From Octopus vulgaris (lineage: Eukaryota): a DNA stretch of 64,000 bases. Position numbers and translations under genes: made by a program. The notes below the pieces were generated by a model. That model saw nothing but the letters and a program-made list of their open reading frames with translations. It searched no databases and was not told the DNA's origin. Of the stretch, positions 12,797 through 44,070 are shown in pieces. Position 1 is the first letter of the stretch. Each line of letters starts with the position of its first letter. The stretch is taken from the NCBI GenBank assembly GCA_951406725.2, contig OX597828.1, forward strand, positions 36,952,001 through 37,016,000, given 5' to 3'.

Positions 12797-12968
12797 GGGA
12801 GAGTTTACGAAAAGAACAAAACACGAAGACAGGTCGTGTACAAAACAAACAGATGTATTAGTATAACGCTCAGGATTAGAAAATGTCTTTTACGTTTCGA
12901 GCCTACGCTCTTCTACAGACAAGGACACAGAAAAAACAAGGAGAGAAACAAGGAGAGAAAAAAATGTG
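12797..12968 (-). mobile_element. ~170-bp (TA)n-inserted element (PLE-like 3' end) with variant hammerhead; related copies at 21585-21727 (+) and 42880-43047 (+)
   Basis: Three copies share (tccttt)ctgttgaaGAGCgtagGCTCGAAACGTAaaagac...acacctgtcttc...ttgtaaa and abut TA/CA microsatellites. Confidence 0.65.
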
Positions 12969-13110
12969 TATATATATATATATATATATATATATATATA
13001 TATATACCCGAGTAAGCATATAAATATGAAACAAGGTGGAAAAAATAGTACTAGAATACCAAAGGCAGAGTAATATGCTTCATTAAAAAGCAGCAGAAAT
13101 ATCACAAAAA

Positions 13111-13139
13111 CTGTTACTCAGAGTTTCACGTACTCGTTC
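13111..13139 (-). ncRNA. 3' half of a hammerhead motif, truncated at a fold-back junction
   Basis: Minus strand GA-ACG-AGTA-CGT-GAAA-CTC-T-GAG-TA-ACAG. CTGAN and the 5' strand of stem I are missing. Confidence 0.5.
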
Positions 13140-13318
13140 GAACGGGGACGTTAAATTCTGAGAACGTGTCATTCTTTCAACCCCGATATAACGCCACTTA
13201 TTATTATAAATATAGGCGCAGGAGTGGGTGTGTGGCAAGTAGCTTGCTTACCAACCACATGGCTCCGGGTTCAGTCCCACTGCGTGGCACTCAGATGTTT
13301 ATAAATATATGTATATAT

Positions 13319-13378
13319 TTGCCGCTGAAGAGGAGACAATTCTTATGAATTAACTCCGAAATTGGACCAATACGGTAA
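13319..13378 (+). ncRNA. Type I hammerhead ribozyme, intact core
   Basis: Stem I TTGCCG/CGGTAA; core CTGAAGA (13325-13331); stem II GGAG/CTCC extended by AATTC-TTAT-GAATT; GAAA (13358-13361); helix III TTGG-A-CCAA; AUA triplet, with predicted cut after 13372. Confidence 0.85.
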
Positions 13379-40030: not shown

Positions 40031-40665
40031 CTCTGTAAATTAGAAAATTACTATTTTTAAATCTCACAAAGTGAGATATTCAGCAACAGTACTTTGTAGT
40101 AAAGATCGTTTGCCAACATAACATGGCAGTCCTGGTTTAGGACTAATGTTGCTGTAATTTAGCCCCATGATACATCGTCACCAACTGGCACGATCTGTGT
40201 CCTTATATTCTTGAAGAAGGGAGTCTAGCATCCCCACTCAGCTCAAAACAATATATGTGTATCACAATTTCTGGGTTATTTCTCTTCATCAGCACAGAAT
40301 AATCGTTCAGCTAGAGATGGTGCTGCCAAATTCCCGTTCGAAATATATAGTTTTCAAAGTGATAACTAGTCACTGATCTATAAATTAGAAAATTACTATT
40401 TTAAAATCTTATAACGTGAGATATTCAGCAACATAATATGGCAGTTATGGTTTAGGACTAATGTTGCTGTGATTTAACCCCAGGTGATATCGTCTCCAAC
40501 TATTGTTTTGAGCTGAGTGGGGGTGCTAGATTCCCTTGTTCGAAAATATAAGGACAGATTGTGTCGTATAGACAGCCGGAGACGATGTATCATGGGGCTA
40601 AATTACAGCAACATTAGTCCTAAACCTGGACTGCCATGTTATGTTGGCAAACAATCTTTACAACT
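40031..40665. repeat. Direct plus inverted triplication of a 120-220 bp module (40031-40253 +, 40377-40500 + partial, 40501-40660 -)
   Basis: Shared string ggcagtcctggtttaggactaatgttgctgtaatttagcccc appears twice forward and once reverse-complemented. Confidence 0.9.
40256..40296 (-). ncRNA. Degenerate minimal hammerhead motif
   Basis: Minus strand TGTG-CTGATGA-agagaaataaccca-GAAA-ttgtga-TA-CACA. Stem I (4 bp) and the core are intact; stem II is poorly paired. Confidence 0.5.
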
Positions 40666-42322
40666 CTGTAAGTTTTTAAAAGTAACCGGTAACTGTAAGG
40701 TTTATTGTGATTGGTTTGACTGTCACGAACTGGCCTGTCACAGAAGGTGTCGGAACATGCTGCTACTCTACCGTAACGGTTAGGTTAGATACCGTAAACT
40801 ACACTCGTCTTGAAATCCCTCGGCTGGCTGAATGCTTTCTGAGAGCGCACGCTAACGAGGCAGTGTAAACAGAACCGACGCCGAGACCCGGCTAAACGGT
40901 GTGATTGTTTACATTTTCTGTTCGTCAGCTGTTGCAAATGGCGACTGATGTCTGTCTGCTATGTTTGCTGTGCTGTTATTTTAATATAATCTTACTATTA
41001 ATCAAGCTTCCCAAACATACATGTGAGTGTCAGTTGAAAATACTGAGTTGTAGGACCATAGATCTATGTGAGTGTTTTACGGTGTTCGCCATCGATATGT
41101 GCAAGTACCAGTAGAAAATACTGCGCTGTAGAACCATAGGATATATGCAAGTGCTTTACACTATTCTCCTTTCACTTTGGTGCTACTCTAAACCACAGGA
41201 AGTAAAGGTTCAGATTTTATATGGGGTATATAAGACTAGCCCTAGTTTTGGGGTAGTTTTTAAAAGATTCGAATTCCGTTCTGTACGCCGGTATATACGG
41301 TATATGAATATTCGAAGGGATTTATTATAGTTTCCGTTTACGAAGTTACGAAATTCACTCACAAACCATTGGTTGTCTCAGCTTTACAGAAGACACCCAA
41401 TGTACCGTGCCATAGGACTGAACTCAAAACAGCGAGGCTGCAAACCGATCTTCTTAACCACAGAGCCATTGCTGCTAAACTTTTTAATGTCAAATGCATC
41501 TTTTGAGAGTCTTTGTTCAGCTTATTTTAAATACATCCTCAATTTAAAATATTAAACTCTTCATATATATTTTATAGGTAATATTTTTATAGAAATTACC
41601 GATAAAAATGTATATGAAGTATCATAATACCCATGTCTCACTATATATATACACACACACACACACACATATATATATATATATATGTATATGTATATAA
41701 ATGTATATATATGTGTATATATTATCTCTCTCTCTCTCTCTCTCTCTCTCTCTCTATATATATATATATATATATATATATATATGTATATATCTCGGAT
41801 TCCGATATAATTTTATGGCACTGTAATAGCATATGTAATGTTATATTGATAAAAATATTTTTTTTCTCTCAAACTGTATGTTAAAAGTCATAAATACAAT
41901 TCTTGTAAATTCAGTTTTTGAACACATAACCGTTTATTTTATAGCACTATATTTATGTAAATTGCTGATGTATGCAATGAAATAAATAAATTTTATATCT
42001 TGTATTCTGCATATCGTATCTAACCATGCCGGTGCCAAGATTTATAGCATAGTTGTATCTCAGATGAGTTGGAATGTATTGGAGTGTTTTGTAGTAAAAT
42101 AACCGACCCTGGACACAACGCAACTGGATGTAAGGTGACAGTATGTGAATCGCCGATTCTCGGTTGAGTTGCCGGCCATTGAACCGAATGAGCTATATTT
42201 CGGATAGTTGAGTTATTCATTGTTATCATCTGGACGTGGTAATTGCTAAGTCAATTCCCAGCGAGATTTCAATTCAGATCCACGTGGTTTAGAAACGAGA
42301 CATGTAAAGCATTTACACATCT

Positions 42323-42590
42323 CTCCGGCATAGAGATTACTAAGTTTCCAAGATATACATTGTCACAGACTCTGCCTGTCACTGACTTTTTTTTGTGATT
42401 TTATGGGGTCAGTCTTAATTTATAGGCTAGTTTATCAAACCTCTTGTATATCTGAGGCTGAGAGAACAGAGAGCAGTATCTGTTGGGGGTAGGGCTGAGG
42501 GAACAGACAGACATCATAGTTGGTATAGTCATAAAAATCAAGATTTATTAGAAGCAATATCATGAGGTTTAGTAAAGGAAAACTTAAACC
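42323..42590 (+). repeat. ~265-bp direct duplication, partner at 43484-43748
   Basis: ttactaagtttccaagatatacattg...gaggtttagtaaag..aacttaaacc is nearly identical at both sites. Confidence 0.93.
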
Positions 42591-43266
42591 TCTTCAAATT
42601 TCTGTCTCTCCAGCTTAAACTTTCATTCGATTCCTTACGATGACGCGAGGTTTGATAATAACAAGGCGGCCAAGACAGCTATTTAATGTTCATGTCTTTC
42701 TCAGTGATGAAACGAGATACACCGTAACTCAAATTCCGAAAAATGGAAAACAGGACGAGTGTTTTTACTCGTCCTGTTTTACATTTTTTTCTCTTGTTTA
42801 CGGATTTCATATTGTTTACACAGTTGGTGACGTCTTGTGCCCATATATGCGCATAAATATATTATATATATATATATATCAGTCTCCATGACTGATCGCT
42901 AACTCCGAAAGTTTTTTATTTTCTCCCTCTTTATTTCCTCGTGCTCCTTTCTCTTGAAAAGCGGAGGCTCGAAGCGTAAAAGACTTTCTCACCTGCTTGT
43001 TGTTTATACACCTGTCTTCAGCTTTCGTTTTTTTGTAAATTTCACCTACACACACACACACACATATATATATATATATATATATATATATATATTGTAT
43101 AAAGGATCGTTGGTAAGGCCAGAACAATGCGAAGTAATGCAAAGCAAATCCCAAGAAAACAAATAAATGAATTAATGTTGAGTTACCTTGCATTCAATAT
43201 TTTGGGGTTATGACTCCATTTTCAAGAAACTCATATATATATATATATATATATATATATATATAT

Positions 43267-44070
43267 AATCAAAAAAAGCAACAAGGATATCCAGAGGTAA
43301 TGCAGTTCGATCGTTTCATGCAACTCCATTTAATTGAACAATGCAATCATTACATCAATATAAAATGCAGAGCAATCTTCAGCTGCACAAAGACATAGAA
43401 TTTAATTAAATTAGAACAGATGGTACATTAGTATAATTATAACTAAAATCTCCAATAAGTAAAAGAGATAGACAAAGAACATACTCCAGCATAGAAGTTA
43501 CTAAGTTTCCAAGATATACATTGTTACATACTCTGCCTGTCACGGATTTTTTTGTGATTTTATGGGGTCACTTTTAATTTATAGGCTAGTTTATCAAACC
43601 TTTGTATATCTAAGGCTGAGAGAACAGAGGGCAGTATCTGTTGGGGGTAGGGCTGAGGGAACAGACAGACATCATAGATGGTATAGTCATAAAAATCAAG
43701 ATTTATTAGAAGCAATATCATGAGGTTTAGTAAAGAAAAACTTAAACCAAGATGTTAGCTGACAATTAAGGGGGTCCCTACTAGCAGACCATTGATAATG
43801 AAACAAAGGAAGTCTTATGTAGTATTATAGTTAAATATTTTAAACAATGCTGCAATATTGTATACAGTTAAAGTTTAGGGTTATTCAGAGGATTATTAAG
43901 AAGAATATTATAACAAAAGGATAGAAATTTATGAATACTTTTGAGTATATACTAAACTTTTTCCACAGTAGAGGGAGGAAAAAATTATCCAGAAATAGTT
44001 TAATACTTATACTTATTGTACACCTAAATACTAACTCATCAGATGGTATCTGTGAATATAGATTAATTGG
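43267..44070 (-). mobile_element. Probable Penelope-like or non-autonomous retroelement 3' region ending in (TA)n
   Basis: Contains the 43300-43388 hammerhead about 35 bp from the TA tract. Its internal segment 43484-43748 is duplicated at 42323-42590. Confidence 0.45.
43300..43388 (-). ncRNA. Type I hammerhead ribozyme with ~58-nt stem II; U16.1 mutated to A
   Basis: Minus strand: stem I GTGCAG/CTGCAT; CTGAAGA; long irregular hairpin (TGC/GCA, CATTT/AAATG, ATTGA/TCAAT, TGTAA/TTGCA); GAAA; palindromic helix III CGATCG; then AA instead of TH. Confidence 0.7.

What the first reader, a model, noticed from the sequence alone, without database searches (positions are those of the whole stretch)
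12797..43388. A set of sequence-unrelated, (TA)n-embedded short elements that all converge on a type I hammerhead ribozyme with loop-less palindromic helix III
Seen: at least seven short inserts with no mutual sequence similarity carry the same fold order (stem I - CUGANGA - stem II - GAAA - palindromic helix III - UH - stem I), most of them within about 150 bp of a TA/CA tract. Helix III reads TTGG-A-CCAA (13362), TCC-T-GGA (36739), CTC-T-GAG (13117-13123 -), CGATCG (43308 -) and ACGT (12892 -); decayed cases are at 15219-15263, 22529-22576 and 40256-40296. Stem sequences differ while pairing is kept, which amounts to covariation. Established: Penelope-like retroelements and animal retrozymes carry minimal type I hammerheads that cleave as dimers, and some PLE clades target (AT)n. 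Inference: this genome hosts many parallel ribozyme-bearing retroelement or retrozyme families that use microsatellites as landing pads, here at roughly one motif per 5 kb. These would be invisible to ORF-based annotation and could cut host pre-mRNA.
Basis: partly seen in the sequence, partly recalled or inferred. Interest (0 to 1): 0.8.

Follow-up and report, generated by a model that had tools for sequence, protein, structure and literature searches.

The report
Penelope retroelement remnants carrying variant hammerheads
These short inserts are likely the broken tail ends of several known Penelope-like jumping genes that land in TA repeats and carry hammerhead (self-cutting RNA) motifs; only one motif is intact, but one very abundant family has a fixed change in the catalytic core and a nearby insert has a rearranged hammerhead layout, two predicted variants I could not find in print and whose cutting is untested.

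Summary
Partly confirmed. Of the 8 sites named, only 13325(+) is a defect-free type I hammerhead. Two more carry 2 descriptor defects each; these 3 hits compare with 0.078 expected, and 0 of 1404 shuffles reach 3. One site has only its 3' half, two are decayed, one is doubtful. No tandem copies or RT/GIY-YIG remnant were found.

The general picture is published. Hydra-clade Penelope-like elements insert in (TA)n and carry this long palindromic helix III, including in Octopus.

Two things look new.
(1) Site 12892 belongs to a family with 3 copies here and 882-14955 contigs per run in 4 runs. Its minimal hammerhead has U instead of the conserved A6. No position-6 variant reaches 3%, while N7 and H17 vary.
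(2) Outside the finding, 8266-8340(-) is a hammerhead in non-circular block order, with the stem II strand displaced upstream (0 of 3171 and 6 of 2663 shuffles). By eye, published Naiad consensus tails show this layout (9 places) or type CSG (6 places), although Naiads are reported to lack canonical hammerheads.

Cleavage is untested, and cutting of host pre-mRNA is unsupported.

The parts
13319..13378 (+). Intact type I hammerhead, Hydra-clade type: core 13325-13331, GAAA 13358-13361, palindromic helix III 13361-13371, predicted cut after 13372; tail runs to (TA)n at 13509
   Evidence: 0 defects; dimer fold is the computed minimum
36695..36753 (+). Decayed type I hammerhead (U4C; C.A at base of stem II), 3+1+3 palindrome; (TA)n 151 bp downstream
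   Evidence: 2 defects
43300..43388 (-). Type I hammerhead with long stem II, U.U at 10.1-11.1 and U16.1A; (TA)n 39 bp downstream
   Evidence: 2 descriptor defects, one of them a normal Hydra-clade feature
12797..12968 (-). Copy 1 of a high-copy family with a minimal hammerhead at 12887-12922: core C-U-G-U6-N-G-A plus extra A, stem II 4 bp, 2-bp palindromic helix III; set in (TA)n on both sides
21586..21721 (+). Copy 2 of the U6 family (core 21606-21613; C3A and U16.1C in this copy); ends at a (CA)n/(TA)n tract
   Evidence: 83% identical over 126 bp to copy 1
42920..43047 (+). Copy 3 of the U6 family (core 42951-42958, 3 defects); ends at (CA)n(TA)n
13007..13162 (-). Remnant with only the 3' half of a Hydra-type hammerhead (GAAA 13127-13124, palindrome 13123-13117, UA, stem I strand); 5' half replaced or decayed; (TA)n 109 bp downstream
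   Evidence: 3' half closely resembles the Hydra-2_aMil row (read by eye)
40256..40296 (-). Decayed type I hammerhead; helix III reads like a CpG-decayed 6-nt palindrome (inference); no microsatellite within 775 bp
   Evidence: 2 defects in relaxed scan
15219..15263 (-). Probable decayed minimal hammerhead; stem I largely lost
   Evidence: 4 defects
22529..22576 (-). Doubtful remnant: CUGAUGA and a 4-bp stem II, but G12 missing and no clean helix III
   Evidence: 4 defects
8266..8340 (-). Rearranged hammerhead outside the finding: stem II 5' strand 8340-8335, helix III 3' strand 8320-8317, UH 8316-8315, stem I 3' strand 8314-8309, stem II 3' strand 8307-8302, GAAA 8301-8298, helix III 5' strand 8297-8294, stem I 5' strand 8278-8273, CUGAUGA 8272-8266, plus a 10-bp extra helix (8334-8325 with 8288-8279); T-rich tail ends in TA-rich repeat near 8135

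Best explanation
The inserts are likely 5'-truncated, mostly decayed 3' ends of several unrelated Penelope-like retroelement families, each carrying a hammerhead motif 40-150 bases from the end that abuts a TA/CA microsatellite. Inferred mechanism: the element's GIY-YIG nuclease nicks a microsatellite, its RT copies the RNA from near the 3' end and usually stops early, so only the ribozyme-bearing tail is left; these tails then decay neutrally. In the source elements the palindromic helix III would pair between two tandem copies, so cleavage would be limited to multimeric transcripts. Three kinds are present. (a) Hydra-clade type with long palindromic helix III (13325, 36701, 43382, 13117, probably 40292). 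(b) A minimal, Neptune/Poseidon-type motif in a very abundant family whose core has U at position 6; the fold appears to be under selection, and cleavage is predicted to be slow or protein-assisted. (c) A rearranged, Naiad-type motif at 8266-8340. Shown: motifs, shuffle controls, 3' polarity to microsatellites, the family variation pattern. Inferred: link to RT/nuclease ORFs, clade assignments, cleavage.
For: Enrichment over shuffles. Polarity to tracts, 7 of 10 within 150 bp downstream against 26%. Three copies of one family share a 3' end at a tract and differ at the 5' end. Craig 2021 supplement lists Hydra-clade elements with (TA)n preference, mostly 3+1+3 palindromic helix III, frequent U10.1.U11.1, and a hammerhead about 100 nt from the 3' end of Hydra-1_Obim. 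Cervera 2014 consensus CUGANGA-H, G10.1-C11.1, palindromic 15.2-16.2 fits the 12892 family except at position 6. For 13325 the dimeric hammerhead is the computed minimum, -37.1 against about -26.6 kcal/mol for two monomers; helix III adds only 0.5 kcal/mol as a hairpin and 8.9 as a duplex. In 4 of 4 runs laid, position 12914 (N7) is the only one of 172 with all three other letters listed (3-24% each), 12891 (H17) varies A/U (2-21%), no variant is listed at 12915 (U6) or at the other 11 core positions, and the majority letters restore stem I.
Against: No RT or GIY-YIG hit in 150 of 221 open stretches scanned, so the link to Penelope-like ORFs rests on analogy. The Hydra-1_Obim motif itself is not in the window, and the U6 family motif is not in the Craig consensus set. 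Rfam finds no hammerhead. Only 1 of 11 motifs is intact; two named sites lie far from any tract. Core invariance alone is weak: 0 of 12 core positions vary against 13 of 65 downstream non-CpG positions (hand count, p about 0.07). Computed dimers of the other sites are mostly not the hammerhead fold. A single U6 copy can arise by decay: in L153 one of two inverted copies has A6 and the other U6.
Confidence: 0.8

Rival explanations
1. The inserts are solo monomers of non-LTR retrozymes that spread through small circular RNAs.
For: Short, non-coding, type I hammerhead; retrozymes are proposed to derive from Penelope terminal repeats and include solo monomers.
Against: No tandem array holds a hammerhead. 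Copies of the 12892 family share a 3' end and vary at the 5' end. No listed joint links the 3' end back to the cut site in the 4 runs laid (contigs are weak for this).
Confidence: 0.1
2. The U6 family carries a dead ribozyme: a master copy lost A6 and was amplified passively, since cleavage is not needed for insertion.
For: A6 is present in all 56 hammerheads listed by Cervera 2014; natural A6C cleaves at under 0.1 per min; catalytic mutants of an anole Penelope hammerhead still insert in vitro.
Against: Variation after U6 fixation concentrates on N7 and H17, the two positions a hammerhead leaves free, in three organism labels.
Confidence: 0.3
3. The motifs are chance matches in AT-rich repetitive DNA.
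For: Relaxed descriptors do pick up noise (TA-run hits; 0.46 hits per shuffle at 2 defects with stem I >=4). Sites 22571 and 15257 need 4 defects.
Against: 0 of 1404 shuffles reach the 3 strong hits; 0 of 3171 and 6 of 2663 for the 8272 motif; family-level pattern.
Confidence: 0.04
4. The inserts act as host regulatory ribozymes that cut pre-mRNA.
For: One copy is intact; 882 contigs of a run guessed to be RNA carry the U6 family (may be DNA).
Against: Solo copies are predicted to need a partner; 10 of 11 are damaged or variant; no host coding sequence detected; both orientations occur.
Confidence: 0.05

Closest known systems
Hydra-clade Penelope-like elements (Craig et al. 2021, PMC8557442; includes Hydra-1_Obim of Octopus bimaculoides)
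   Same: (TA)n insertion preference; type I hammerhead near the 3' end; long palindromic helix III with a single central base; frequent U.U at the base of stem II.
   Different: No ORF here, so clade membership is inferred; the window's motifs are other families than Hydra-1_Obim; 13325 has a palindrome one pair longer and a long loop II.
Minimal hammerheads of metazoan Penelope/Poseidon/Neptune elements (Cervera and de la Pena 2014, PMC4209133)
   Same: Short stem I, extra base between 9 and 10.1, G10.1-C11.1, 2-bp palindromic helix III, very many dispersed truncated copies.
   Different: The 12892 family has U at position 6 with no variant at 3% or more in 4 runs; all 56 listed examples have A6.
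Non-circularly permuted hammerheads, types SGC and CSG (Eckert et al. 2023, PMC10085705)
   Same: The 8272 motif has blocks in the order S, G, then stem I plus CUGAUGA, a very short S-G linker and an extra helix.
   Different: Its best Watson-Crick stem II partner lies upstream of block S, so the chain would be opened between A9 and G10.1. The passages read place the published forms in metatranscriptomes and metagenomes, not in animal retroelements.
Naiad elements (Craig et al. 2021)
   Same: (TA)n target; by eye the 3' ends of Naiad_Obim, Naiad_Ovul and other Naiads show the same block order and spacing as 8272 with different, fully paired stems.
   Different: The paper reports only 'HHR_core' or 'HHR_half_core' for Naiads and no complete hammerhead; no Naiad ORF lies beside the window copy.
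Non-LTR retrozymes (Cervera and de la Pena 2020, PMC7229834; Li et al. 2026 preprint)
   Same: Non-coding, type I hammerhead, animal genome.
   Different: No tandem 150-450-bp units here.

Membership tests
Type I hammerhead ribozyme | Core CUGANGA / GAAA / UH in order C-G-S | tested here: met
   Fully met at 13325; core complete also at 40292; one core change each at 36701 and 43382
Type I hammerhead ribozyme | Three helices around the core | tested here: met
   13325: stems 6, 4 and 5 bp; dimer fold is the computed minimum. Not complete at the other named sites
Type I hammerhead ribozyme | Match to an Rfam hammerhead model | tested here: not met
   No hammerhead family among 18 matches at 12800-13500; whole-window list was cut at 150 of 434 rows
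Type I hammerhead ribozyme | Self-cleavage after H17 | not testable with these tools
   Needs in vitro assay
Hydra-clade Penelope-like element | Hammerhead with long palindromic helix III near the 3' end | tested here: met
   13325, 36701, 43382 and 3' half of 13117 compared by eye with File S2
Hydra-clade Penelope-like element | Insertion into (TA)n | tested here: met
   Tract 39-151 bp downstream of those four sites
Hydra-clade Penelope-like element | ORF with RT and C-terminal GIY-YIG lacking CCHH | tested here: inconclusive
   No RT or GIY-YIG hit in 150 of 221 open stretches; expected for truncated copies; no genome held
Minimal PLE hammerhead (Cervera 2014) | Extra base between 9 and 10.1, G10.1-C11.1, palindromic 15.2-16.2 | tested here: met
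   12892 family
Minimal PLE hammerhead (Cervera 2014) | A at core position 6 | tested here: not met
   U in 3 of 3 window copies; no other letter at 3% or more in 4 of 4 runs
Non-LTR retrozyme | Tandem units each with a hammerhead | tested here: not met
Non-LTR retrozyme | Circular RNA intermediate | not testable with these tools
   Only contigs were available
Type SGC/CSG hammerhead (8272 motif) | Blocks S and G adjacent with short linker; stems I and III paired out of circular order | tested here: met
   Stem I 6 bp, helix III 4 bp plus A-U, 1-nt linker; 0 of 3171 shuffles
Type SGC/CSG hammerhead (8272 motif) | Stem II 5' strand directly after CUGANGA (block C intact) | tested here: inconclusive
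   Downstream strand pairs 6 bp with two wobbles and an A.A at the base (-5.3 kcal/mol); upstream strand pairs 5 Watson-Crick with G.A at the base (-4.7). The Naiad look-alikes read by eye favour the upstream strand
Naiad element (8272 motif) | ORF with N-terminal GIY-YIG, CxC and RT | tested here: inconclusive
   No such ORF beside the single copy

The most novel reading that the evidence does not exclude
Penelope-like elements explore hammerhead variants that standard searches miss. Naiads, reported to lack canonical hammerheads, carry non-circularly permuted ones in their tails: intact type CSG in some lineages, and in others, including the 8266-8340 copy here, a form opened between A9 and G10.1 that lies outside the six published block orders. 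Beside it, one of the most abundant repeats of this genome keeps a working hammerhead with U at the normally invariant position 6. Both self-cleave.
Probability: 0.4. Interest if true: 0.8.

Novelty: new variant of a known kind. Interest (0 to 1): 0.52.

Why it matters
The headline observation is known biology and adds only further family members. The two variants matter more. If the rearranged motif cleaves, the largest Penelope-like clade said to lack hammerheads does carry them, which reopens the question of whether a ribozyme is a general part of Penelope-type retrotransposition. It would also add a hammerhead layout with a strand break inside the core and move the non-circular permutations from a few environmental sequences into animal genomes. 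A family-wide A6U would show a change at a supposedly fixed core position kept in a very high-copy natural element, which is directly testable and fits the report that one Penelope hammerhead needs its protein to cleave.

Tried and rejected
No whole genome is held, so no genome-wide scan or 5' extension was possible.

Rfam: no hammerhead family in the rows shown. Pfam on 150 of 221 open stretches of 45 aa or more: no RT, GIY-YIG or host-gene hit at a curated cut-off.

The exact family motif was absent from viral contigs and metagenome contigs. A generic U6 pattern gave 0 of 120 viral loci with both stems and 3 of 110 metagenome matches (104 loci seen of about 1600 estimated). One of the three (L153) sits beside an A6 twin, and the 14 loci inspected showed no recognisable retroelement ORF by eye. 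I therefore rejected these as evidence that U6 is family-wide outside this genome. The many termite-gut hits read in another register and were not counted.

No rearranged motif was found in the 344 fetched loci. No RNA holder was listed on record; this is no evidence on expression. The Naiad_Obim and Hydra-1_Obim motifs are not in the window as such.

Back-splicing to rejoin the opened core was considered because an AG precedes the stem II strand at 8340. It was dropped because a matching donor is missing here and in most look-alikes read by eye. The single-strand minimum-energy fold of 8250-8350 is a long hairpin, not the pseudoknotted hammerhead, which that program cannot form. Lunse et al. 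2017 was not held, so its variants could not be checked.
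Full report
Setting. The window is AT-rich animal-type DNA, dense with microsatellites and dispersed repeats up to about 48.9 kb, then a 13-bp satellite. 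The dominant repeats resemble octopus SINEs; this is recall and was not tested. No whole genome is held.

Checking the sites. A structure-aware type I descriptor on bases 1-48900 finds one defect-free hammerhead, 13325(+), and at 2 defects 36701(+), 43382(-) and one weak extra hit at 46979. In 35.5 kb of non-tandem sequence, 3 hits with at most 2 defects and stem I of 6 or more compare with 0.078 expected; 0 of 1404 shuffles reach 3. The descriptor was written after seeing the sites. A relaxed scan adds 40292(-) at 2 defects and the 12892 family, along with three noise hits; it needs 4 defects for 15257 and 22571 and 5 for 13117, which keeps only its 3' half inside an imperfect hairpin. Seven of 10 remnants have a TA/CA tract within 150 bp downstream in ribozyme orientation (an eighth at 151) against 26% of background positions; 5 of 10 have one that close upstream; two sites are over 600 bp from any tract. 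No remnant is in a tandem array. Pfam finds no RT, GIY-YIG or host protein in 150 of 221 open stretches. Rfam finds no hammerhead.

Dimer reading. For 13319-13378 the computed minimum-energy dimer is the dimeric hammerhead (-37.1 kcal/mol against -13.3 for the best monomer). Helix III adds 0.5 kcal/mol as a hairpin and 8.9 as a duplex. The other sites mostly do not give this fold.

What is known. Cervera and de la Pena 2014 (PMC4209133; parts 1-2 of 4 of the text, parts 1-2 of 3 of the supplement) describe thousands of variable minimal hammerheads per animal genome, mostly solo and tied to truncated Penelope-like elements. Craig et al. 2021 (PMC8557442; abstract, passages, supplement searches and part 2 of 59) list Hydra-clade elements with (TA)n preference, long palindromic helix III with one central base, frequent U.U at the base of stem II, and an Octopus member. 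Sites 13325, 36701, 43382 and 13117 fit that type, so the headline finding is known biology. An O. vulgaris repeat survey (PMC13282606, passages; its supplement was not read) counts 31 recently active Penelope-like families and does not mention ribozymes in the main text. Retrozymes are defined by tandem units (PMC7229834 passages; preprint 2026.07.22.740005 part 1 of 5 and passages; its supplements are closed), and these are absent here.

First new point: the U6 family. The insert at 12797-12968 has two more copies in the window, sharing the 3' end at a microsatellite. All three have U at core position 6. Runs under four organism labels hold the sequence. Laying 4 of the 24 listed runs (three labels) gave 14955, 13531, 5648 and 882 contigs. 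Position 12914 (N7) is the only one of 172 with all three other letters listed (3-24%), 12891 (H17) varies between A and U (2-21%), most other listed changes in the motif are CpG transitions, the majority letters at 12920 and 12922 restore stem I, and nothing is listed at 12915 (U6) or the other core positions. This is the pattern expected of a hammerhead under selection, but the core-versus-flank contrast alone is weak (0 of 12 against 13 of 65, my hand count). All 56 hammerheads in Cervera's Figure S3 have A6. A natural A6C cleaves slowly (PMC3088659 section 8 and passages). An anole Penelope hammerhead cleaves only with protein and is not needed for insertion in vitro (PMC11167929 passages), so a passively amplified dead motif stays a real rival. 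Scattered U6 motifs in other animals' contigs look like single-copy decay. Searches for A6U in print found nothing relevant. Lunse et al. 2017 was not held; I know it only from a review (PMC6765202 passages) and from recall, and it may cover this variant.

Second new point: a rearranged hammerhead at 8266-8340(-), outside the finding. Listing all CUGANGA cores showed one whose partner blocks lie upstream: helix III strand plus UH plus stem I strand, then after one base the stem II strand, GAAA and helix III strand, then the stem I strand and CUGAUGA. Stem I has 6 and helix III 4 Watson-Crick pairs beyond A-U; 0 of 3171 shuffles match that, and 1 of 3171 gives any looser hit. A stem II partner with 5 of 6 Watson-Crick pairs lies at 8340-8335, upstream of everything, and a 10-bp extra helix closes the linkers; 6 of 2663 shuffles match this looser four-part descriptor. 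A downstream strand can pair about as well, so the single copy does not decide between type SGC and a form opened between A9 and G10.1. It is single-copy in the window and has a G.A mismatch at the base of stem II. Eckert et al. 2023 (PMC10085705 passages) treat CUGANGA and its stem II strand as one block and found the non-circular forms in metatranscriptomes and metagenomes. In the Craig supplement I read by eye 43 CUGAUGA, CUGACGA and CUGAGGA places in the Naiad part of the file (CUGAAGA was not searched; most places lie in ORFs). Nine places, of six distinct sequence types and including the ends of Naiad_Obim and Naiad_Ovul, show the same opened layout with different, paired stems and the stem II strand upstream. 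Six places, apparently in the nematode block, show intact type CSG. One more is partial. These readings were not computed and not checked record by record. Craig et al. marked Naiads only as 'HHR_core' or 'HHR_half_core'. Searches for this in print found nothing. Earlier AI notes mention a permuted hammerhead in a Penelope tail and a core-opened phage hammerhead in other genomes; these are unchecked leads, not support.

Mechanism and verdict. Most likely (0.8) these are truncated tails left by target-primed reverse transcription at microsatellites by several Penelope-like clades, now decaying; the ribozymes would act in tandem transcripts of the source elements, not in these solo copies. Motifs, controls, polarity and family variation are shown; ORF links, clades and cleavage are inferred. 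The finding as stated is largely known. The U6 family and the rearranged motif make it a new variant of a known kind, interest 0.52. If both variants cleave (probability about 0.4), interest would be 0.8.

Noticed in passing
window 8266-8340 (-): Rearranged hammerhead (non-circular block order, stem II strand upstream) that resembles Naiad tails; described in the report.
   Followed up: yes
window about 8575-8720 (-): Short open stretch that resembles the restriction-like endonuclease end of R2/R4/Dong-type elements (recalled motif); no Pfam hit.
   Followed up: partly
window 48926-63995: 13-bp satellite of about 15 kb that changes orientation near 52078 and 54255.
   Followed up: no
window 42323-42590 and 43484-43748: A 268-bp direct repeat, 94% identical, brackets the stretch that holds two hammerhead remnants.
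   Followed up: no
window 12341-12461 and 13164-13290: Inverted duplicate of a SINE piece plus about 35 bp of the 13117 remnant's upstream sequence, like the inverted copies seen beside Penelope elements.
   Followed up: partly
window 40032-40671: Nested direct and inverted repeats (up to 87% over 164 bp) around the 40292 remnant.
   Followed up: no
window 203-440, 3816-4367, 17137-17518, 18856-20594, 44074-44311, 46707-47041 and others: Two or more SINE-like families with many copies, some in tandem with periods of 160-184 bp.
   Followed up: no
L129, L135, L136, L164, L207 and about 20 similar loci: A repeat family in animal-like contigs with a minimal hammerhead 3' half, a 5-bp stem II and an unusual junction before the core; occurs as inverted pairs and an 85-bp tandem triple.
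   Followed up: partly
L153 3489(-) and 3501(+): Two inverted minimal hammerheads close to the Acropora Neptune example of Cervera 2014; one has A6, the other U6.
   Followed up: yes
Craig 2021 supplement, Naiad consensus tails: Six places read by eye as complete type-CSG hammerheads, a type published from only two similar metagenome sequences.
   Followed up: partly
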